Notes: generated by a model from the sequence alone, not told the origin. Numbered from the stretch's first letter, positions 2,735 to 16,568 are shown. The stretch: DNA of 64,000 nucleotides from Nocardioidaceae bacterium (GCA_020636935.1 JACJWW010000010.1:10826-74825), one strand, 5' to 3'. Translations and numbers: made by a program.

Positions 2735-4012
2735 TCAGCCAGCTGGCAGGGTGGTGTAGGTGCCGTAGTCGGCACCGGTGATCGGAGCCTTGATCGTCTT
2801 GGCGTCCAGCTCGCCTTTGAGGAACCAACCTGAGATGCAGCGTCCAGACCCGCTACACGGCATCGAGCCAGTGCGGGTGCTGGCCATTTGTTGGCTTCCT
2901 CCGATCTTGTAGCCACTCATGTAGAACTTCGCCCAGCCGGCGATGTAGTAATAGGACTTTGAGCCGTGACCCGAGCTGCAATTTGAGAAGTTGGTCGGCG
3001 GGCCGGTTGGCGCCGAACCCGAGCTGACCAAGCAGCTGAAGACCGGCAGGTCGAGTACCTTGCCGCGCAGATTGGGGAAGGCGGAGGTGCAATTGCCGGG
3101 TGCTGAGTTGCCGGTGCTGATCTTCACCCAACCGTCAGTGCTGACATTGGCTTGGCAACTGCTGCCAGAAACTGGGTCGAGATAGCCGAACCCACCAGGG
3201 GCATCCTTGTTGTTGACTGCACAGTCATGCCCAGTGCTCTGGTTGGGCGAGTGCAACCAGATGGTGACTTCCTGGTTGGCTGCAGGCCAAGCAGGTTGGC
3301 CAGAACCGCCATACCCGGGGAAGGCCCCAGAGGGCGGATTGGTCACCCAACCAGCGCCGGAGTTCATGTAGTACTCCCACTCGCAGTGGGAGAAGGTCAC
3401 CGGGATGCTGCCTGTGGAGTAGTTCCCGGCTGCTCCCCAGGCGTAGCGAGAGCAGGCCTTGACGTTGACGCCTTCCTGTCCGGTGATGGTTTGACCGAAG
3501 TCGAAGGGCAGGATCGATCCGGAGGCAGTCTTGGTCGAGGAGTAGACCTCCACATAGGGCACCGATGAGTTGCTGCCCTTGAGCCAACTCGGCAAGGGGG
3601 TGCACTCACGCAGATCGCTCACGCTCGCATCCGAGGTGGCCGAGTTGCAGGTGGGCAGCGACCCGCCAGTGTTGCGGCCGCAAAGCCCGCCGCCGTACTT
3701 GCTGGTGTCGAGCTTGGTCAACCCGTCATTGGCGTTTTGGCCCATGAGTTCAGTGAGTGCTCCTGCCTGGCTGGAGTTGCAGGCGGCTGGGTTCTTGGCG
3801 CAGGTGAGGGTCAGGGCTCGGGAGGCAGCATCGGCGCCGTTTTGGAGTTGGCGACGCTCCCAGAGCGCTTTGCCGACATCGGCCGACAAGGCCAGGGTGC
3901 TCAACACGATGCCACCGGCAAACAGGATCACTATGATGGTGGCCACTGCGCCATGTTCGTTGCGACGGCTGGGCGCATTGCGACGGCTGGGAGTTAGCTT
4001 GATTTGGCGCAT
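2735..4012 (-). CDS. TadG-like pseudopilin with large Cys-rich extracellular domain
   Basis: EHG|AVATIIVILF prepilin-like N-terminus and LSADVG...ERRQLQNGADAA Tad motif; ATG 4012 overlaps the tadE stop (GTG 4021 is an alternative). Confidence 0.8.
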   Translation of the reverse strand: MRQIKLTPSRRNAPSRRNEHGAVATIIVILFAGGIVLSTLALSADVGKALWERRQLQNGADAASRALTLTCAKNPAACNSSQAGALTELMGQNANDGLTKLDTSKYGGGLCGRNTGGSLPTCNSATSDASVSDLRECTPLPSWLKGSNSSVPYVEVYSSTKTASGSILPFDFGQTITGQEGVNVKACSRYAWGAAGNYSTGSIPVTFSHCEWEYYMNSGAGWVTNPPSGAFPGYGGSGQPAWPAANQEVTIWLHSPNQSTGHDCAVNNKDAPGGFGYLDPVSGSSCQANVSTDGWVKISTGNSAPGNCTSAFPNLRGKVLDLPVFSCLVSSGSAPTGPPTNFSNCSSGHGSKSYYYIAGWAKFYMSGYKIGGSQQMASTRTGSMPCSGSGRCISGWFLKGELDAKTIKAPITGADYGTYTTLPAG

Positions 4013-4401
4013 CAGCTGCACCTCATGACGGCTTGGGACGAGAAGCTATTGGGCAGGGCGCTGTCTGCATTGAACATCCGAAGGGCCGGCCCCAGGATCA
4101 CCCAGTTGAAGGGTGTTGAGCTGGTCACCGTGGTCGAGCTGCCCGCACCGCCACACATGGTGGCGTTCGTGGTGACTGTGATTGTCGGTGCCGCAGCAGA
4201 CGCACGGGTGCGTACGTCGGACAGCGTCGCCTCATTGATGATCGCCGTACGCGCCCCTTCGCGGGAGGCATTGGTCAACATGACCTCGGTGTACATCGCG
4301 CGACCGAAGTCGACGATCCCGCCGATCAGCAAGATCAACACCGGCAGGATCAGCGCAAACTCGACTGCGGCTGCGCCGCTGTCATTGCGCTTTGGTCCCA
4401 T
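4012..4401 (-). CDS. tadE: TadE family pseudopilin
   Basis: DSG|AAAVEFALILPVLILLIGGIVDFG...NASREGAR. Confidence 0.9.
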   Translation of the reverse strand: MGPKRNDSGAAAVEFALILPVLILLIGGIVDFGRAMYTEVMLTNASREGARTAIINEATLSDVRTRASAAAPTITVTTNATMCGGAGSSTTVTSSTPFNWVILGPALRMFNADSALPNSFSSQAVMRCS

Positions 4402-4905: not shown

Positions 4906-6078
4906 TCAGCGCGATCTCAGGGCTGTGGCGAGTCTCGCCAAAGCCTCGCCGAGTAACTCTTCGCGCTTGCAAAAGGCCCAGCGCACGAAGGGCGAGCCAG
5001 CCTCAACCTCGGCAAAGAAGCCTTGACTCGGGATCGCAACTACCCGAGCGTGCTCGGCGATCCATCGGCAGAAGTCAGCGCCATTTGCAAACTCCAGTGA
5101 CCGCACATCGGTGTTCACGAAGTAGGTGCCCTGGGCTTCGAATACCTCCAGACCCAGCTCGCGCAGGCCGGTCGACAGCAGGTCTCGCTTGTGTTGCAGG
5201 GAATAGCGCAATCGTTGGTGGAAGCTCTCTTCATTGTTGAGCGCATGCGCAATCGCCGGCTGGAATGGTGCGCCTGACGAATAGGACAGCCAGTTCTTGG
5301 CCCCCTCAACCGCATCGACCAACGAGGCCGGGCCTGTCGCCCAACCGATCTTCCAGCCAGTCAGGGAAAAGCTCTTGCCTGCGCTTGAGATCGTGATTGT
5401 GCGCTCAGTCATCCCAGGCAAGGTGGCAAGAGGTATGTGTGTGTGATCGTCGAAGGTCAGGTGCTCGTAGACCTCATCGCTAACCACGATCAGGTCGTGC
5501 CGGATGGCCAACTCCGCGATCCCAGCCAACTCCGCCCGACTGAACACCCGGCCCGTCGGATTGTGCGGACTATTGCACAAGAGCACTTTGGTTGCCGGGG
5601 TGATCAATTGCTCCAGCGCCTCTAGGTCAACAGTGAAGTCAGGTGCTCTCAAGGTGATTGATCGGCGTACGCCGCCAGCAAACGCGATCATCGCGGGATA
5701 GCTGTCATAGGCGGGGTCGATGGTGATCACCTCATCGTCAGGGTCAACCAGAGCCAGGATTGAAGCCGCAATCGCTTCGGTGGCCCCGGTTGTGACAACG
5801 ACCTGATCCGTGCCCAATTCCTGTCCGTAGTGCCTGGCTTGGTGTGCTCGAATCGCCTCGATCAGGACAGGGTTTCCATGACCGGGCGGATATTGGTTTA
5901 GGCCACCGCGCATTGCCTGCGCCGCAACCTCGATCACGCTGTTGGGGCCGGACTCGTCAGGGAAGCCTTGGCCCAGGTTGATCGAGTTGGTATGGGTGGC
6001 CAGAGCTGACATTTCAGCGAAGATGGTTGACCCGTAGCCGGACAAACGCATTGCTGCCGCTCTGTGCTGATGGTTCAT
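4906..6078 (-). CDS. PLP-dependent class I/II aminotransferase (DapC/YbdL-like)
   Basis: STIFAEMSALA...INLGQGFPD, NSPHNPTG, SDEVYEHL, SSAGKSFSLTGWKIG; start re-called at ATG 6078 because the longer ORF overlaps the sortase antisense. Confidence 0.9.
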   Translation of the reverse strand: MNHQHRAAAMRLSGYGSTIFAEMSALATHTNSINLGQGFPDESGPNSVIEVAAQAMRGGLNQYPPGHGNPVLIEAIRAHQARHYGQELGTDQVVVTTGATEAIAASILALVDPDDEVITIDPAYDSYPAMIAFAGGVRRSITLRAPDFTVDLEALEQLITPATKVLLCNSPHNPTGRVFSRAELAGIAELAIRHDLIVVSDEVYEHLTFDDHTHIPLATLPGMTERTITISSAGKSFSLTGWKIGWATGPASLVDAVEGAKNWLSYSSGAPFQPAIAHALNNEESFHQRLRYSLQHKRDLLSTGLRELGLEVFEAQGTYFVNTDVRSLEFANGADFCRWIAEHARVVAIPSQGFFAEVEAGSPFVRWAFCKREELLGEALARLATALRSR

Positions 6079-6126
6079 CCCCGCATTATCGCGCCCTGTC
6101 TTGCCTGCTTCTGTGACAATGGCCAG

Positions 6127-6804
6127 ATGGCCGAACCCAAGCGAAGTAGGTCGCTGCTCTGGTGGGTGGGGATCTTGCTGATCCTCGCCGGAGTCGGCCT
6201 GCTCGCTTGGGTTGGCTGGCAGTTCTACGGCACCAACTGGGTGGCGAAGGGGAAGCAGCGAGAGGCCGTCACCTCCTTGGAGCGAAGTTGGCAACAGGCC
6301 AGCGACCCGAAGCAATTGCGTCCGAAGAATGTCGCGATCGGCAATCCTTCTGCGCTGATCCGGATCCCGAAGTTTGGTGCCGACTATGTGATGCCGGTCT
6401 TTGAAGGTGTCGGCGATGACGTCTTGGCCAAGGGTTATGGCCATTTCGCGGGCGAGGGGAGCGCCAACCCAGGCCAAGTCGGCAACTATGCCTTGGCAGC
6501 CCATCGGGTCACCCACGGCGAGCCACTGCGGCGGATGCCGATCCTGCGTCCCGGAGACGAGGTCATCGTGGAGACAGTCGACAAGATCTTCAGCTATCAA
6601 CTCGACACCAACCCAAATGATCTGATCGTGCCCTTCACTGAAGGCTGGGTGGTTGACCCGGTGCCCAAGAACCCAAAGCCAGGTGGAGTGGGGCCAGCCC
6701 CTGGCCACGACCGGCTGATCACCTTGACCACCTGCTCGGAGCTCTTCCACACCGATGGACGCATGGTCGCCTTCGGTCATCTGGTGTCTGCCAAGACCAA
6801 ATAG
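6127..6804 (+). CDS. Sortase, class E-like
   Basis: N-terminal TM, NYALAAHRVTHG (His), LITLTTC (Cys), GRMVAFG (Arg). Confidence 0.9.
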   Translation: MAEPKRSRSLLWWVGILLILAGVGLLAWVGWQFYGTNWVAKGKQREAVTSLERSWQQASDPKQLRPKNVAIGNPSALIRIPKFGADYVMPVFEGVGDDVLAKGYGHFAGEGSANPGQVGNYALAAHRVTHGEPLRRMPILRPGDEVIVETVDKIFSYQLDTNPNDLIVPFTEGWVVDPVPKNPKPGGVGPAPGHDRLITLTTCSELFHTDGRMVAFGHLVSAKTK

Positions 6805-6873
6805 GCTCGCCGCCGAAGTTGTCACAACCCAAGCCGGGTCAGGTTGGGCCAGCTGCGACTCTAGGATGTGGGC

Positions 6874-12297: not shown

Positions 12298-12332
12298 GCT
12301 GGGGTCGGCTGAGCTGGGGTCGGCTTAGCTGG
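12288..12332. repeat. 3 x 15-bp tandem repeat whose first unit contains the fbaA stop
   Basis: ggtcggctgagctgg x2 then ggtcggcttagctgg. Confidence 0.9.
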
Positions 12333-12359
12333 CACTGCTTTGCGTGAGGCTCTGGGCTT

Positions 12360-13625
12360 TCAGCTGATGCCGTGTACGCCGGGGCCATTCGCCCCGGTCT
12401 CGGTGTTGGCCACGGTCGGTTTGCTGTAGCTGTCGCCGCACTGCCATGAGTCCCAGCTCTCGCGGGCATAGGTGACGAAGTCGCTGTTGATATAGCGGGT
12501 GGTGTCACCGGCGTACAGATAGCCACGCCACATGAAGGCAACCCAAGCGCCGGTCTTGAGGAAGCCGTCGTTGTTGTTGATGTGATCGGAATTCATCCCG
12601 CCGTAGTAGCGCTTCTTGCCCGAGTCGATGCCGGTGGCATCCCAGCCCCCGGCGGTGTAGGTCTTGGTGCCGCTTTGGTTGTTTGATTGTTTGAACTCCG
12701 CCCAGACGCCGGTGGATGGATTCTTGCGCATCACCACGAAGCGATAGATCGAGTAGGTGCCACCCCAATCCTGGCGGCCATCCTCTTCTGCAGTCGGCCA
12801 ACCGAAGTCGAAGACTCCATAGGGCCCTGGTAGGGCACCGCCCCAGACATCCAGTGAAGTGCGACATACTTTGCGGGCGGGTGCTTCGGGCGCGGTGATG
12901 GGTGGCGCAGTCACGGTGTAGTTGACCTTGGGGAAGGTGCCGCCAAACACCGTCTGCCAAGTGGCCTTGGTCGGGGAGCGCAAGCGTGCCTTGGCGCGCA
13001 GCCCGACATGGCGCCCGGCGCTGGCCAGGACGAGATCACGACGGCCGGCGTAGGTGCTCAGATCGAACTTCGACTGAACCCTCGGGCAGATCACCTTGGT
13101 GCCACCCGGAGCCACAATGCCATTGCTGATCGGTGTATAGCCGCGTGTGGTGCTGTAGGTGTTGCTGGCTGACAGGTTGCCCACGGCGTTGCTCCCAAAG
13201 GTCCAGGCCGCCGGGCTTTCGATGCCCGTGGTGCAGTCTGCGCTGCTCGAGCTGGTGCGCACATCGACCAATGAGTCGGCAAACAGGCGACTGTCGCTGG
13301 TGGCAGCTGTGGCGCTGGAGTCGCTTGCGTTTTTCATCAAGAAGGCATCGAAGGAAAAGATGTCGGTGTTGCCGTTGAGCCGGTCTGAGGTGAGGCCGAT
13401 CTTGAGTCCTGGGGTGCTGGTGGCGGGGTTGAGGTCGCTGTCGCCCACGTGCAGGGTCGGATTGACGGAGACGTCGGAGACAGTTTGCTCAAACTTTGAG
13501 CTACGCGTCGCCGGAGGCGTGTAGCTGTCGGCCTTGCTCCAACCCGCGCGCGTGGGCTGAGTGGCGGTCAACCCGATGCCCGCAAGGAGGGCCACCAGAG
13601 CCAGTCCTGAAGCGAGCTTGTGCAT
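12360..13625 (-). CDS. Secreted protein with SipW-type signal peptide (putative tip/minor fibre subunit)
   Basis: Hydrophobic leader ending TRA|GWS, like TFA|YWS of its neighbours; Ser/Thr/Trp-rich; last gene of the sipW operon. Confidence 0.6.
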   Translation of the reverse strand: MHKLASGLALVALLAGIGLTATQPTRAGWSKADSYTPPATRSSKFEQTVSDVSVNPTLHVGDSDLNPATSTPGLKIGLTSDRLNGNTDIFSFDAFLMKNASDSSATAATSDSRLFADSLVDVRTSSSSADCTTGIESPAAWTFGSNAVGNLSASNTYSTTRGYTPISNGIVAPGGTKVICPRVQSKFDLSTYAGRRDLVLASAGRHVGLRAKARLRSPTKATWQTVFGGTFPKVNYTVTAPPITAPEAPARKVCRTSLDVWGGALPGPYGVFDFGWPTAEEDGRQDWGGTYSIYRFVVMRKNPSTGVWAEFKQSNNQSGTKTYTAGGWDATGIDSGKKRYYGGMNSDHINNNDGFLKTGAWVAFMWRGYLYAGDTTRYINSDFVTYARESWDSWQCGDSYSKPTVANTETGANGPGVHGIS

Positions 13626-14434
13626 TATTCAATCCTGCCTTGCCAGGTGGTTGAAGGTGAGTGAAATGTCCGACATTGTGGCTGGTCTGCTTCGGACTCC
13701 TCCTCACGACGGTTGCCGGCCAAGACGATCAACCCGACGTAGATGAGCAGGGCACTCAGGCACAGGATGGTTGCGGTGCTGTACAGGCCGAGTGGGGCAC
13801 CCGTTTGAGGCAAAGGCCGATGTGCAGAGGAGTGGTGTGGCTGTTTTGCGGGCGGCCGTGGTTTGGTAGCGGGCCCGGTTTCGACCAGGGGTGGGCTCAC
13901 GCAGGTGCCGTCCTGTGCCGGCGCATTGACCTCGGACCCACGCACGGCCATCGGGATCTCGATCCGCTGCAGCCGCATCGCATTGGTTGCTGACCAGGGG
14001 AGGGCTACGGTCGCGGTGATCTGTCGCTTGCCGCCCTTGGTGACCGCTTGAGTCAAGATATTGATGCAGGCGTCACCCAGGTTTGCTTGCGCACTCGCCA
14101 GCAGCTTCCCGGACTCGTCGAGGTCGTCCACGATCAGTTTGAGTTGGGCAGATTCATTTGGCACATGGACATCGGGATCGGCTAGGGTGATATCAGCCAA
14201 GATCTGGAAGTACGCCGTGCTCTCACTGGAGTTGCGCACCCAGAAGGAGTCGGTGATTGTGTCACCTGGCACGATCCGACCGGCTGCAGGGAAGAGCAGC
14301 GGAGGGTCCGGGCTCCAAGTCATCCCATCGGCGGAGAAGAGCACGCGTTCGGCAGCTTGCGCCGTGGCTGGGAGCCCTACCGTGACCATCCAGATGAGCA
14401 GGCCGAAAATGGTGGCGAAGGGTAGGCGCCTCAT
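13625..14434 (-). CDS. LPXTG cell-wall-anchored protein with TasA-like IVPGD motif
   Basis: ATG 14434 overlaps the sipW stop; Sec signal ending AQA; RIVPGDTITDSFWVRN; Pro-rich linker; LPQTG plus hydrophobic segment plus RR. Confidence 0.75.
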   Translation of the reverse strand: MRRLPFATIFGLLIWMVTVGLPATAQAAERVLFSADGMTWSPDPPLLFPAAGRIVPGDTITDSFWVRNSSESTAYFQILADITLADPDVHVPNESAQLKLIVDDLDESGKLLASAQANLGDACINILTQAVTKGGKRQITATVALPWSATNAMRLQRIEIPMAVRGSEVNAPAQDGTCVSPPLVETGPATKPRPPAKQPHHSSAHRPLPQTGAPLGLYSTATILCLSALLIYVGLIVLAGNRREEESEADQPQCRTFHSPSTTWQGRIE

Positions 14435-15042
14435 GGTCGTCTCGCCGACTTTGGCCTGCGCCGGCCTGGTCGCGGAGCGCCGATGAGTTGCCATCCGGCG
14501 TACCCGAAGAGTGCGCAGGCCGCGATCCAGATGCCAGTGTCCTTCTGCTCCTGCGGCAGCGCAGTGGCGGCGTAGCCGACATAGGGCACCCAATATTTGA
14601 CCTGGCCCCTGACCTGCTTTGACGTGAGCTCCCAAGGGTCCTCCGCATTGTTGGCGTCGCCCTTGGTGCGCAGGCGCACGGTGCCATTGGGGTCGGTCGT
14701 CTTGGCCACAATCCGGTGGGTGACGGTCATCCCGGAGTCGGGCTTGGGGAGGAAGGTGATGATCTGACCTGGCTCAAGCCTGGCCAAGTCAGTGTTGCCA
14801 TGCACCCGCTCGACCACCACCTGACTGCCGATCGGGATGGTTGGCGTCATTGAGCCGGTGAGCACAGTCAGCGGCACCCACCCCAATACCTTTGGTACGA
14901 CGATCACGGCCACCAGCGCCACCGCCACCACGCTGACCAAGGCCCAAGTGATCCACGTGCCCGCTGTGCGCAAGTGCCCGCGAGACACCTGGGCGTGTGT
15001 GCCCGGTGCCTGCTGCGGCGTGCTTGCGGTCAACGTGGGCAT
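14431..15042 (-). CDS. sipW: Signal peptidase I, SipW/ER-type
   Basis: VLTGSMTP (Ser), VTHRIV (His), TKGDANNAEDP. Confidence 0.9.
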   Translation of the reverse strand: MPTLTASTPQQAPGTHAQVSRGHLRTAGTWITWALVSVVAVALVAVIVVPKVLGWVPLTVLTGSMTPTIPIGSQVVVERVHGNTDLARLEPGQIITFLPKPDSGMTVTHRIVAKTTDPNGTVRLRTKGDANNAEDPWELTSKQVRGQVKYWVPYVGYAATALPQEQKDTGIWIAACALFGYAGWQLIGAPRPGRRRPKSARRP

Positions 15043-15059
15043 GAGGAGTCCGGCTCCAA

Positions 15060-15782
15060 TCAGGTCTGGGACAAGGTCAGGTCGAAGGCTCCGAAGGTGA
15101 TGGCCTTGTTGGTCAATCTGGCCAGCAAGTCAGCGCCTGCGTCATCGGGCGGCACGGCCATGGTCCAGGTGACTTGGTAGCTGCCGCTCCCGTCGGCGCT
15201 GCTGACAGGCAGCGTCAACACCCAACCAGTGCCACTCGTTATCGCGGTGGTCGAGTTGTCGGGTTTGGTCACCGACGCTGAGATGGTGGCGGCGCAGGCG
15301 TAGGAGTTGCTCTGATCACCGGGGCAGGCGCCGCCCGTGTTGGGGAGCACCTCCGAGAGATCAACCATGAGATCTCCTTGAAGGTTGTCTCCGGAGGCGG
15401 TCACGGCTATTTGTCGCGTGATCGTCAACTTGTCGCCCGGCACCAACCTCTCGGTGCCCAAGGTGGCGGTCACCTTGCGACATTCGGTGTACGGCGCCGT
15501 TGTGGCACAGGTCGTGCCAGAGACAAAACTGCGTTGCCCGACGGTGATCTGGCTGTGTAGTTCGATGCTCGTTGTGCCACCACTGATATTGAGAGCACCA
15601 GCGGTGAGATTGCCGGTGCCGATTGCATTGGTGGTGCCCCAGAGGGCGAGAGTGTCCAATCCTCCGGTCAGCAAGAAGACTCCAAGGGTTGCGGCAACCA
15701 ATGGCTTCCACAACCTCCGCAACAGTTTGTCTCCCGGTGCTGTTGCCCCGGTGGGGGTACGGCATGGATGGCTCCTCTTCAT
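15060..15782 (-). CDS. SipW-dependent exported protein, TasA/camelysin-like (RER_14450-type), minor subunit
   Basis: TLA|LW leader, LTAGALNI strand, RLVPGDKL, C-terminal FDLTLSQ. Confidence 0.75.
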   Translation of the reverse strand: MKRSHPCRTPTGATAPGDKLLRRLWKPLVAATLGVFLLTGGLDTLALWGTTNAIGTGNLTAGALNISGGTTSIELHSQITVGQRSFVSGTTCATTAPYTECRKVTATLGTERLVPGDKLTITRQIAVTASGDNLQGDLMVDLSEVLPNTGGACPGDQSNSYACAATISASVTKPDNSTTAITSGTGWVLTLPVSSADGSGSYQVTWTMAVPPDDAGADLLARLTNKAITFGAFDLTLSQT

Positions 15783-15811
15783 CGGGTCCTCGTCTCAGGA
15801 TTTGCCCAGCC

Positions 15812-15848
15812 CGCGTGATCCGGTCGGGATCGCCGACCGGATCACGCG
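15812..15848 (-). terminator. Perfect 16-bp stem-loop after first gene of sipW operon
   Basis: cgcgtgatccggtcgg-gatcg-ccgaccggatcacgcg. Confidence 0.75.
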
Positions 15849-15854
15849 ACTGAA

Positions 15855-16436
15855 TCAGGGCACCTGGACCAGGTTGAGCTTGAAGTCGGTCAAGCTGGCC
15901 GTGGTGGTGACGCCATCTTGATTGGCGACGCTCGAGGGCAGTTGCAATGCGACGATCGCCGTCTTGGCGTTGCCGCTGTCGGCCTCGGTCAGCCCAGTGG
16001 GGCTACCCGAAATGCCAGCTGCCACGGTGATCCACTTGGTCAGGTCTGTGCCCGATCCGGTGGCTGGCAGGGTGGCGGTCAGGTCGGCCTTGATGTTGTC
16101 GCCGACCAAGGTCGGGGTGGCGGTGGCGACGTACTTGAGCTTGTCGCCGGGCACGATCCGGAAGGCAGTGATGTCGATGATCTGGCTGCATCCGCTCAGA
16201 CCGACCGGTGAGGTGGTGGTGTCGGTGGCAGCCGAGGTGCCATTGGCAGTGCAGTCATACCAAGCGTCCCCCGACACAGCCAAAGACAAGTTGCCCGCGG
16301 TGATGTCGCCGCTGCCCACATTGGTCGACTGCGACCAGTAGGCGAAGGTGCCGCCGACGCCAGTCAACAAGGCCAGGCCAAGGCCCGCGGCGATCGCGCC
16401 CCTTTTTGCATGGGACTTCTTCGGTGTTGCGTTCAT
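15855..16436 (-). CDS. SipW-dependent exported protein, TasA/camelysin-like (RER_14450-type), probable major subunit
   Basis: KRGAIAAGLGLALLTGVGGTFA|YWS, ITAGNLSL, RIVPGDKL, C-terminal FKLNLVQ. Confidence 0.82.
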   Translation of the reverse strand: MNATPKKSHAKRGAIAAGLGLALLTGVGGTFAYWSQSTNVGSGDITAGNLSLAVSGDAWYDCTANGTSAATDTTTSPVGLSGCSQIIDITAFRIVPGDKLKYVATATPTLVGDNIKADLTATLPATGSGTDLTKWITVAAGISGSPTGLTEADSGNAKTAIVALQLPSSVANQDGVTTTASLTDFKLNLVQVP

Positions 16437-16568
16437 CAGGGTTCTCCTCAGGAATCAGACCGACGATGGCCGGCTCTATCCATTATGAGGTTATAAGTCC
16501 GTTTTCATACAAAAAAGTGAGATTTGCTATGGAAAATCTGTTCTCGGCGCCTGCGTAGGATGTGGGCC

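What the first reader, a model, noticed from the sequence alone, without database searches (positions are those of the whole stretch)
12360..16520. Candidate undescribed system: SipW-processed TasA-like fibre with an LPXTG-anchored base and a tip subunit
SEEN: five tightly coupled minus-strand genes behind an AT-rich promoter region. Genes 1 and 2 carry the SipW-type leader (TFA|YWS, TLA|LW), then an ITAGNLSL/LTAGALNI strand and a (I/L)VPGD motif. Gene 3 is a SipW-type peptidase. Gene 4 keeps the IVPGD motif but has an ordinary AQA signal, no TAG.L strand, and an LPQTG sorting signal. Gene 5 has a SipW-like leader (TRA|GWS) and is about twice as long. KNOWN: Bacillus TasA is cut by SipW, has the equivalent FASGTLDL and LKPGD motifs, and polymerises by N-terminal donor-strand exchange; actinobacterial RER_14450-type proteins are defined by their signal peptide but have no function I know of. 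INFERENCE: gene 1 is the major shaft, gene 2 a minor shaft, gene 4 an acceptor-only subunit tethered to peptidoglycan by sortase, and gene 5 a tip adhesin. That would be a hybrid of TasA-type self-assembly and sortase anchoring, distinct from both isopeptide sortase pili and Tad pili.
Basis: partly seen in the sequence, partly recalled or inferred. Interest (0 to 1): 0.85.

Follow-up and report, generated by a model that had tools for sequence, protein, structure and literature searches.

The report
Wall-anchored TasA-like fibre operon, actinobacterial
A wastewater actinobacterium (family Nocardioidaceae) carries a five-gene operon that most likely builds a TasA-type protein fibre whose subunits lock together by strand insertion and whose base is tied to the cell wall by sortase; such operons have been proposed for other bacteria but never tested, and none has been studied in actinobacteria.

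Summary
Five minus-strand genes (12360-16436) sit behind a 45% GC intergenic region.

- **g1:** a TIGR04089 "SipW-dependent" protein.
- **g2:** a weaker paralogue of g1.
- **g3:** a SipW-type signal peptidase with its Ser/His/Asp residues intact.
- **g4:** a Sec-secreted protein with an LPQTG sorting signal.
- **g5:** a 421-aa protein with no known family.

New here:
- g4 belongs to an unannotated family of about 155 sequence clusters. About 88% of full-length members carry an LPXTG-type tail.
- g4 is homologous to g1 (hhalign 95%) and its predicted fold resembles TasA.
- g4 starts at the strand that follows the donor strand, so it can accept a strand but cannot give one.
- In 400 sampled genomes of the class, all 14 strong g4-family matches lie 0.6-2.3 kb from a TIGR04089 gene.
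- A complex model puts g1's first 19 mature residues into g4 (score 0.70, best control 0.48).

- The donor strand is YWSQSTNVGSG, not ITAGNLSL.
- g1 and g2 are separated by a conserved hairpin.
- The tip role of g5 is untested, because its fold could not be modelled.
- The idea is not new. Preprints on C. perfringens BsaB and on AbpX already propose LPXTG anchors for TasA-type fibres, and this scan has reported similar operons in other genomes.

Verdict: a new variant of a known kind, of moderate interest.

The parts
16437..16523 (-). AT-rich intergenic region upstream of g1. It is the likely promoter region, with a GAGGAG ribosome-binding site before the ATG. The DUF3151 gene runs divergently from it.
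   Evidence: GC is 0.448 against 0.627 for the window. The sequence was read. No sigma-70 consensus match was found. DUF3151 was identified.
15855..16436 (-). g1, the predicted major fibre subunit. It is a TIGR04089 protein of 193 aa with a SipW-type leader cut after A32 (TFA|YW). Its invariant motifs are W34, G48, VPGD 95-98 and Q191.
   Evidence: TIGR04089 89.9 bits and TIGR04088 30 bits. Family alignment A3.
16302..16340 (-). Codons for g1 residues 33-45 (YWSQSTNVGSGDI), the predicted donor strand. It corresponds to TasA residues 28-38.
   Evidence: The complex model's interface covers g1 residues 33-51. The TasA donor strand is defined in PMC9674648.
15803..15857 (-). Strong RNA hairpin that starts at the g1 stop codon, inside the 72-nt g1-g2 spacer. 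It probably acts as an attenuator or mRNA stabiliser that keeps the major subunit in excess.
   Evidence: dG is -44.4 kcal/mol, z is -4.76, and 0 of 200 shuffles fold as well. The orthologous locus has a hairpin of different sequence at the same place, with dG -43.1 and z -4.67.
15060..15782 (-). g2, a paralogous TasA-like subunit of 240 aa with four Cys residues. It has its own leader (TLA|LW), a donor segment and a VPGD motif. It is predicted to be a minor or adaptor subunit.
   Evidence: TIGR04089 51.7 bits, below the cut-off. It aligns over its full length in A3. An orthologue lies next to the g5 homologue in G672.
14431..15042 (-). g3, a SipW-type (archaeal/ER-type) signal peptidase I with two membrane spans. 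The catalytic motifs are GSM (Ser), THR (His) and GDAN (Asp).
   Evidence: TIGR02228 74.6 bits (cut-off 51.85) and PF10502 31 bits. The motifs were read from the translation.
13625..14434 (-). g4, a TasA-like beta-sandwich (residues 30-170) without a donor strand. It has a Sec leader (AQA|AE), a Pro-rich stalk, an LPQTG sorting signal and a membrane span at residues 217-244. It is the predicted base anchor or terminator of the fibre.
   Evidence: AF2 pLDDT is above 90 for residues 30-170. Foldseek's top matches are the TasA fibre and archaeal bundling pili. Atlas neighbours are. hhalign to the g1 family gives 94.9%. The family tails were counted.
13799..13813 (-). Codons for LPQTG (g4 residues 208-212), the sortase cleavage motif.
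   Evidence: Translation. T211 and G212 are nearly invariant in alignment A1.
12360..13625 (-). g5, a 421-aa protein of unknown fold with a SipW-like leader (TRA|GW). It is a rare accessory subunit. A role as distal tip or nucleator is a hypothesis only.
   Evidence: No family match. The model has pLDDT 37. Homologues occur only in TIGR04089-SipW clusters.
6064..6804 (+). Class E sortase, the only full sortase found in this 84%-complete genome. It is the candidate enzyme for anchoring g4 and lies about 6.8 kb from the operon.
   Evidence: NF033747 187.8 bits (cut-off 160). Genome search.

Best explanation
The operon encodes a surface fibre of the TasA superfamily, held together by donor-strand insertion and tied to the cell envelope.

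- **Processing (shown by family membership, inferred for this copy):** g3, a SipW-type peptidase, cuts the special leaders of g1 and g2 and probably g5. The cut falls after T-x-A/G and leaves W at position +2.
- **Polymerisation (inferred):** The mature g1 N-terminus (YWSQSTNVGSG...) is a donor strand that completes the beta-sandwich of the next subunit, so g1 polymerises as the shaft. The hairpin after g1 keeps g1 in excess over the downstream genes.
- **Anchoring (modelled, not shown):** g4 has the same fold but begins just after the donor-strand position. It is exported with an ordinary Sec leader and ends in LPQTG plus a membrane span. It can therefore accept the free donor strand at the cell-proximal end of the fibre but cannot extend it. 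This would terminate growth and tether the fibre to peptidoglycan through the class E sortase, or to the membrane in relatives that lack the motif.
- **Accessory subunits (weakest steps):** g2 is a minor or adaptor subunit. g5 is a rare, variable large subunit that may donate the first strand, as TapA does, and so end up at the distal tip.
For: - **Family hits:** g1, g2 and g3 match their families as described.
- **g4 fold:** g4 folds confidently as a beta-sandwich. Its two best Foldseek matches are the TasA fibre 8aur and the archaeal bundling pilus 7ueg.
- **Atlas neighbours of the g4 model:** these include "SipW-dependent-type signal peptide" clusters that carry PF12389. They also include a Bacillota cluster in which PF12389 is on 70% of members and Gram_pos_anchor on 48%.
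- **g4 is homologous to g1:** the g4 family aligns to the g1 family by profile-profile comparison (probability 94.9%, E 4.7e-8, 132 columns). g4's mature start falls on g1's AGNLSL, so the 13-residue donor segment is missing. Across the family the mature N-terminus lies a median of 5 residues before the first strand.
- **Anchor tails:** 120 of 137 full-length family members have [LIVM][PASGV]xTG followed by a hydrophobic stretch and a basic tail. Most of the rest have a membrane span followed by RRR.
- **Co-location:** in 400 sampled genomes of the class, 14 of 14 strong g4-family matches lie 0.64-2.3 kb from a TIGR04089 match. About 15 of 22 TIGR04089 loci carry such an anchor gene. SipW is adjacent in every strong-match locus examined in detail.
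- **Complex model of mature g1 with the g4 domain:**
  - The score is 0.70 against a best control of 0.48. That mark was reached by 58 of 80 solved complexes and 2 of 110 mismatched pairs.
  - The runs agree in at least 94% of their contacts, and the partner's pLDDT is at least 82.
  - The interface is g1 residues 33-51 lying antiparallel to g4's last strand (P0004 residues 153-168) and to residues 44-56.
- **Hairpin:** a hairpin after g1 is conserved in the orthologue.
- **Sortase:** a class E sortase is present in the window.
- **A related cluster:** it carries a 501-aa protein with a SipW-type leader and a ricin-type lectin domain.
- **RNA libraries:** sequence from all five genes occurs in contigs of RNA libraries from sludge and biofilm, from two studies. 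This is consistent with expression but does not prove it.
Against: - No fibre has been observed. Every structural step is a prediction.
- The complex passes by a thin margin (+0.22, with 0.20 required). One unrelated control scored 0.48, and the solved TasA fibre may prime the model.
- The VIA-align Z scores (7.8-8.2) do not stand out from those of generic beta-sandwiches.
- Sequence profiles of g1 and g4 do not reach TasA in the PDB. Pfam Peptidase_M73 is below threshold for g1 and covers only its N-terminus.
- By my own knowledge, class E sortases usually prefer LAXTG, whereas g4 has LPQTG.
- About a third of TIGR04089 loci have no recognisable anchor gene.
- The fold of g5 is unknown. Its leader is not recognised by TIGR04088.
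Confidence: 0.6

Rival explanations
1. g4 is not a permanent terminal subunit. Instead it is an envelope-tethered assembly factor. It transiently binds the donor strand of newly secreted g1 and either primes or nucleates polymerisation or blocks premature polymerisation, much as the membrane-anchored chaperone ElrE does for the Enterococcus Elr pilus.
For: - The model shows only that g1's N-terminus fits g4. It does not show that the complex is terminal or permanent.
- Some family members have only a membrane span and no sorting motif.
- ElrE works by donor-strand complementation from the membrane (10.64898/2026.10.17.759780).
Against: - 88% of family members have a sortase-type signal, which implies release from the membrane and covalent attachment to the wall.
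- g4 is homologous to the subunits themselves. It is not homologous to any known chaperone.
- TasA-type fibres are reported to assemble without chaperones (PMC9674648).
Confidence: 0.15
2. The operon makes no fibre. g1, g2 and g5 are monomeric secreted or wall-associated proteins, such as matrix, coat or camelysin-like proteins, that merely share a dedicated signal peptidase. g4 is an independent LPXTG surface protein.
For: - No member of TIGR04089 has been characterised, and no paper mentions it.
- Pfam TasA/camelysin membership is not met.
- The structural scores are middling.
- One control in the complex test scored 0.48.
Against: - The N-terminal extension has an invariant W at +2 (TasA has F29 at +2), followed by the G.L strand, VPGD and a C-terminal L.L.Q motif. 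All are conserved across the family, as would be expected for strand exchange.
- An acceptor-only paralogue is strictly co-located with these genes.
- The layout of a major-subunit gene followed by a hairpin is typical of pilus operons (the comparison with pilus operons is my own knowledge).
Confidence: 0.15

Closest known systems
Bacillus subtilis tapA-sipW-tasA (TasA biofilm fibres; PDB 8aur; PMC9674648)
   Same: - Both have a dedicated SipW-type peptidase.
- The subunit has a special leader, an N-terminal donor strand directly after the cleavage site, a G(T)L strand, a (K/V)PGD motif and a jelly-roll fold.
- An accessory protein with a donor-like N-terminus is present (TapA there, possibly g5 here).
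   Different: - Sequence identity is only 12-14% at the fold level.
- No TapA homologue is present (TIGR04087 gives no match).
- The window has an acceptor-only LPXTG paralogue that Bacillus lacks.
- The host is an actinobacterium.
Clostridium perfringens sipW-bsaA-bsaB(-LPXTG)-bsaC with srtB (PMC7395162; PMC11580942)
   Same: - It is a SipW operon with several TasA-family paralogues.
- In most strains one paralogue carries LPXTG, and a sortase gene lies next to the operon.
- Its authors speculate that this paralogue anchors the fibre to peptidoglycan.
   Different: - BsaA fibres are cross-linked by isopeptide bonds and are membrane-anchored in strain 13.
- The BsaA family model TIGR04090 is not met here (15.5 bits against a cut-off of 60).
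- The anchoring role is untested there as well.
AbpX clade of the TasA superfamily in bacteria (bioRxiv 10.64898/2026.01.04.697558)
   Same: - Its loci encode a major subunit, minor subunits, predicted tip proteins, a signal peptidase I and SLH or LPXTG anchors.
- AF3 predicts that the LPXTG protein joins the fibre by donor-strand complementation.
- That paper's cluster map notes TasA homologues from Actinomycetota.
   Different: - It is a different clade. It is calcium-dependent, has a ten-span peptidase and a DUF5305 accessory protein.
- Its bacterial examples are Clostridia.
- It gives no analysis of the actinobacterial TIGR04089 loci or of the g4 family.
Enterococcus faecalis Elr (WxL) pilus (bioRxiv 10.64898/2026.10.17.759780)
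   Same: It uses the same logic: a donor-strand polymer, a distal adhesin, a subunit with an LPXTG motif that terminates assembly, and retention on the wall by sortase.
   Different: - It belongs to an unrelated fold family (WxL).
- It needs a membrane chaperone (ElrE).
- It is confined to Bacillota and has no dedicated signal peptidase.
Sortase-assembled isopeptide pili of Actinobacteria (Spa-type)
   Same: Both are Gram-positive surface fibres whose base is attached to peptidoglycan through an LPXTG signal.
   Different: - In Spa-type pili the subunits are joined covalently by class C sortases, through a pilin-motif lysine.
- Here g1 and g2 have no LPXTG signal.
- No class C sortase was found in the genome.

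Membership tests
TIGR04089 (exp_by_SipW_III, actinobacterial SipW-dependent proteins) | Score over the curated cut-off of 60 bits across the whole model | tested here: met
   g1 scores 89.9 bits over model positions 6-179. g2 scores only 51.7 bits, so g2 is a sub-threshold relative and not a member by the cut-off.
TIGR04088 (SipW-cognate signal peptide) | The leader matches the 34-residue model over its cut-off of 19 bits | tested here: met
   g1 scores 30 bits. g2 and g5 give no match at E<=1, so for those two genes the feature is not met by the model. They share only the pattern T(-3), A/G(-1), W(+2), read by eye.
SipW-type (archaeal/ER-type) signal peptidase I | TIGR02228 over its cut-off, with Ser-His(-Asp) catalytic residues rather than a Ser-Lys pair | tested here: met
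   g3 scores 74.6 bits against a cut-off of 51.85. The motifs GSM, THR and GDAN are present in the translation. The Bacillus SipW equivalog NF046067 is not met (75 bits against 190).
Pfam Peptidase_M73 (TasA/camelysin) | Score over the gathering threshold of 22.5 bits | tested here: not met
   g1 scores 21.2 bits, over residues 12-57 only. g2, g4 and g5 give no match. The likeness to TasA rests on fold and on motifs, not on Pfam membership.
TasA superfamily (fold level) | Jelly-roll or beta-sandwich core like that of TasA, AbpA and the Saci_0406 thread | tested here: inconclusive
   - For the g4 model, Foldseek ranks TasA fibre 8aur first (E 1.4e-4) and 7ueg second.
- VIA-align gives Z 7.8 with rmsd 3.0 over 133 residues for 8aur, but many unrelated sandwiches score alike.
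- The Atlas neighbours include clusters that carry PF12389.
- g1 itself was not folded alone.
TasA superfamily (mechanism) | Polymerisation by an N-terminal donor strand | tested here: inconclusive
   Only g1 with g4 was modelled. The score was 0.70 against a best control of 0.48, and the interface was g1 residues 33-51. The g1 homo-oligomer was not modelled, because only one job was allowed.
LPXTG sortase substrates | A three-part C-terminal signal (LPXTG, hydrophobic span, basic residues) and a sortase in the genome | tested here: met
   - g4 ends in LPQTG, 28 hydrophobic residues and NRR.
- PF00746 does not match g4 itself, but it matches 18 of 79 family members.
- 120 of 137 members have the signal by pattern.
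- A class E sortase lies in the window.
- Actual cleavage cannot be tested here.
TapA (TIGR04087) / BsaA (TIGR04090) | Score over the family cut-off | tested here: not met
   No TIGR04087 match was found for any of the five proteins at E<=1. TIGR04090 scores 15.5 bits against a cut-off of 60 for g1.
Sortase-polymerised (Spa-type) pili | Shaft subunits with LPXTG and a pilin motif, plus a class C sortase | tested here: not met
   g1 and g2 have no sorting signal. The genome search finds one class E sortase and one weak sortase-like ORF, and no class C sortase. The genome is 84% complete.

The most novel reading that the evidence does not exclude
The unannotated g4 family is the dedicated terminator and anchor of TasA-type fibres in Nocardioidaceae and related actinobacteria. 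It would be an acceptor-only subunit that captures the last free donor strand and is then linked to peptidoglycan by the housekeeping class E sortase. That would give Actinobacteria a second kind of pilus, non-covalent yet wall-anchored, which assembles tip first and base last without a chaperone, usher or pilus-specific sortase. g5-type proteins would be its exchangeable tip or nucleator modules.
Probability: 0.4. Interest if true: 0.6.

Novelty: new variant of a known kind. Interest (0 to 1): 0.42.

Why it matters
TasA-type fibres are a main scaffold of Bacillus biofilms, and relatives are now being found across bacteria and archaea. How such self-assembling fibres stay attached to the cell is still unsettled. 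In Bacillus the role of TapA is unclear, B. cereus is reported as sortase-independent, and the anchor proposed for C. perfringens is explicitly called speculative.

This operon and its relatives offer a clean and testable answer. The candidate is a paralogue that keeps the acceptor groove, has lost the donor strand and has gained a sortase signal. It is found almost only next to the fibre genes.

The organism is abundant in activated-sludge and wastewater biofilm data sets, so the fibre may matter for floc and biofilm cohesion. The g4 family, about 155 sequence clusters, currently has no Pfam or NCBIfam model and is annotated as hypothetical. It could be given a name and a predicted role.

Tried and rejected
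1. A whole-genome search with the full-length g4 profile (A1) across the phylum was dominated by generic LPXTG-tail matches and told nothing about the domain. I repeated it with the N-domain profile A2.
3. Sequence-profile searches of the PDB with A1 and A3 found no TasA or other fibre protein.
4. The VIA-align second look gave Z 7.8-8.2 for thread, bundling-pilus and TasA chains. Many unrelated sandwiches scored within 1 unit, so I do not count it as proof of fold family.
5. g5 remains unexplained:
   - It has no Pfam or NCBIfam match.
   - Only 4 close homologues were found.
   - The AF2 model is unusable, with pLDDT 37.
   - hhalign to the g1 family matches only the leader at 9.6% probability, and to the g4 family gives nothing.
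   - The Atlas feature search gives only unnamed actinobacterial clusters.
6. The sigma-70 promoter scan found no site. This is uninformative for an actinobacterium.
7. Laying RNA-library contigs cannot rank the genes or prove transcription, because only contigs were available at depth 3-8. Contigs from both studies break around the g1-g2 hairpin, but no DNA run was laid for comparison, so I draw no conclusion.
8. Literature searches for TIGR04089, RER_14450 and actinobacterial TasA-like systems found nothing relevant.
9. The longer TTG start of g4 (336 aa) was rejected, because homologues align from the ATG.

Full report
**1. What is there**

The minus strand of 12360-16436 carries five ORFs.
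- g1 is 15855-16436 (193 aa).
- g2 is 15060-15782 (240 aa).
- g3 is 14431-15042 (203 aa).
- g4 is 13625-14434 (269 aa from the ATG). The longer TTG frame is not supported by homologues.
- g5 is 12360-13625 (421 aa).

Spacing: g3/g4 overlap as ATGA, g4/g5 overlap by one base, and g2/g3 are 17 nt apart. g1 and g2 are 72 nt apart.

That spacer holds a hairpin beginning at the g1 stop codon (dG -44.4 kcal/mol, z -4.76). The orthologous locus of a sister species (G009) has a hairpin of different sequence at the same place (dG -43.1, z -4.67).

The 87-bp region upstream of g1 is 44.8% GC, against 62.7% for the window. The operon itself has the GC and GC3 of its neighbours. It lies between fbaA and the DUF3151/purA genes.

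The genome is a 1.76-Mb, 84%-complete assembly. Close homologues are labelled Marmoricola sp. or Nocardioidaceae bacterium in NCBI, where g4 is annotated as "hypothetical protein".

**2. Families**

- g1 matches TIGR04089 (89.9 bits, cut-off 60) and the SipW-cognate leader model TIGR04088 (30 bits, cut-off 19).
- g2 matches TIGR04089 below the cut-off (51.7 bits).
- g3 matches the archaeal/ER-type signal peptidase model TIGR02228 (74.6 bits, cut-off 51.85). It carries the GSM, THR and GDAN motifs.
- g4 and g5 match nothing in Pfam or NCBIfam.
- Pfam Peptidase_M73 (TasA/camelysin) touches only the N-terminus of g1 and falls below threshold.

An alignment of 26 g1-type proteins (A3) shows these invariant residues: A32 and W34 at the cleavage site, G48 (TAG.L), V95-P96-G97, G112 and Q191.

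**3. The LPXTG protein g4**

*Family.* An exhaustive HMMER search found 155 cluster representatives, mostly 200-290 aa.
- Of 137 full-length members, 120 end in [LIVM][PASGV]xTG plus a hydrophobic span and basic residues. LPxTG accounts for 70 and LAxTG for 23.
- Most of the other 17 have a membrane span followed by RRR.
- Pfam sees only the anchor motif, and only in 18 of 79 members.

*Fold.* With this alignment AF2 gives a confident beta-sandwich for residues 30-170 (pLDDT above 90).
- Foldseek ranks the TasA fibre (8aur) first and the Pyrobaculum bundling pilus (7ueg) second.
- The VIA-align second look gives Z 7.8-8.2 for these and for the Sulfolobus thread. Generic sandwiches score nearly as high, so this alone is not decisive.
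- The ESM Atlas shape search is more telling. Its neighbours include:
  - actinobacterial "SipW-dependent-type signal peptide" clusters that carry PF12389;
  - a 400-aa "signal peptidase I" cluster;
  - a Bacillota cluster annotated as LPXTG proteins, with PF12389 on 70% of members.

*Homology to g1.* The profile-profile comparison of the g4 domain family (A2) with the g1 family (A3) gives 94.9% probability and E 4.7e-8 over 132 columns.

In that alignment g4's mature start (AERVLFSADG) lies on g1's AGNLSLAVSG. What it lacks is the 13 residues before it.

In TasA the donor strand is the first 11 mature residues, 28-38, ahead of FASGTLDL (PMC9674648). The segment missing from g4 is therefore the donor strand. 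Family-wide, the mature N-terminus lies a median of 5 residues before the first strand.

**4. Co-conservation**

In 400 genomes drawn from the class, the same draw was used for both searches.
- The 14 strong A2 matches lie in 13 genomes. Each is 0.64-2.3 kb from a TIGR04089 match on the same strand.
- Of 22 TIGR04089 loci, 14 have a strong anchor gene and one has a divergent anchor gene with LPHTG. The others have none that I could recognise.
- Both families are concentrated in Nocardioidaceae (14 of 20 genomes each).

Metagenomic contigs that carry distant g4 relatives also carry SipW next to them.

The usual Nocardioidaceae layout is: TIGR04089 gene, SipW, LPXTG anchor, a second TasA-like gene, then a second SipW fused to an extra domain.

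The window's layout is g1-g2-sipW-anchor-g5. It is shared with G009. One other family has it without the anchor (G672: g1-g2-g5-sipW).

g5 is rare. It was found in 2 of 401 genomes, both inside such clusters.

A related cluster (G491) has a 501-aa protein with the same kind of leader and a ricin-type lectin domain. This shows that large, variable subunits with SipW-type leaders occur in these loci.

**5. Complex model**

Mature g1 (residues 33-193, alignment A3) was modelled with the g4 domain (alignment A2).
- The score was 0.70 against a best control of 0.48.
- That mark was reached by 58 of 80 solved complexes and by 2 of 110 mismatched pairs.
- The runs agree in at least 94% of their contacts, and the partner's pLDDT is at least 82.
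- The interface is g1 residues 33-51. Residues 35-40 pair antiparallel with A2 positions 139-135 (P0004 residues 166-162) and contact P0004 residues 44-56.

This is donor-strand complementation of g4 by g1. The margin is thin (+0.22). My own alignments were used, and the solved TasA fibre may bias the model. It supports binding but does not show it.

**6. Mechanism proposed**

1. SipW (g3) releases g1, g2 and probably g5, leaving W at position +2. TasA has F29 at +2, a residue that packs into the next subunit.
2. A free donor strand invades the groove of the next monomer, and g1 polymerises.
3. The hairpin after g1 would keep g1 in excess.
4. g4 is exported by the general pathway. It accepts the last donor strand and cannot extend the chain.
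5. g4 is then linked to the wall by sortase. A class E sortase lies at 6064-6804.
6. If g5 donates the first strand, as TapA is thought to do, it would end up at the distal tip.

Steps 1-3 rest on homology. Steps 4-5 rest on anatomy, co-conservation and one model. Step 6 is conjecture, because g5 could not be folded and shows no detectable homology to g1 or g4.

**7. Expression and habitat**

The operon sequence is held at 95-100% identity by contigs of RNA libraries from sludge and biofilm metagenomes, from two studies, covering all five genes. DNA carry-over cannot be excluded, so this is only consistent with expression.

**8. Novelty**

No paper in the held library mentions TIGR04089 or RER_14450, or studies an actinobacterial TasA-like system. 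The concept itself is not new.
- The C. perfringens work notes that TasA/BsaA paralogues often sit in operons with LPXTG proteins, signal peptidases and sortases. It speculates that an LPXTG-bearing BsaB anchors BsaA fibres (PMC11580942).
- The AbpX preprint reports LPXTG and SLH anchors, minor subunits and tip proteins in bacterial AbpX loci. AF3 predicts that they join by donor-strand complementation. It also places Actinomycetota sequences in the TasA cluster.
- The Enterococcus Elr pilus shows experimentally that donor-strand exchange and sortase anchoring can be combined, in another fold family.
- This scan has already reported similar operons in Erysipelothrix, Clostridia, Thermoleophilia and other actinobacteria.

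The contribution here is narrower:
- an unannotated anchor family is defined;
- its homology to the subunits is shown, along with the precise loss of the donor strand;
- its near-exclusive co-location with TIGR04089-SipW loci is shown;
- one supporting complex model was obtained.

I rate the finding a new variant of a known kind, of moderate interest.

Noticed in passing
window 15803-15857 (minus strand): A very stable hairpin sits directly after the g1 stop codon. The orthologous locus (L014 4478-4562) has a hairpin at the same place with a different sequence. RNA-library contigs from two studies break around this site.
   Followed up: partly
window 2735-4021 (minus strand): A 428-aa ORF has a TadE/G-like (Flp pilus assembly) N-terminal motif (PF13400). 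The same window may therefore also hold Tad pilus genes.
   Followed up: no
window 12298-12358: The fbaA-g5 spacer holds a tandem repeat GCTGGGGTCGGCT(G/T)A. One RNA-library contig (run X9) replaces these 59 bases with 27 other letters. This is a strain-level indel at the operon's 3' edge.
   Followed up: no
L015 4469-5431, L016 9026-10042, L020 2726-3682: Most Nocardioidaceae clusters end with a second SipW-type peptidase fused to a C-terminal domain of about 200 aa. An Atlas cluster of such 400-aa "signal peptidase I" proteins is a structural neighbour of the g4 sandwich. This suggests a peptidase fused to a TasA-like domain.
   Followed up: partly
L030 (G520:C3:117000-134000): Two complete TIGR04089-SipW-LPXTG-anchor clusters lie in tandem, about 3.5 kb apart, in one genome.
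   Followed up: no
L031 7752-9254: In the G491 cluster, a 501-aa protein with a SipW-type leader (GWA|YWT) carries a ricin-type lectin domain. The g4-like protein of the same cluster has a membrane span plus RRRR but no LPXTG.
   Followed up: partly
window 4906-6825 (minus strand) against 6064-6804 (plus strand): The 639-aa ORF opposite the sortase gene is an artefact of a long open frame. Only its C-terminal 350 aa match an aminotransferase, so the two real genes do not overlap.
   Followed up: partly
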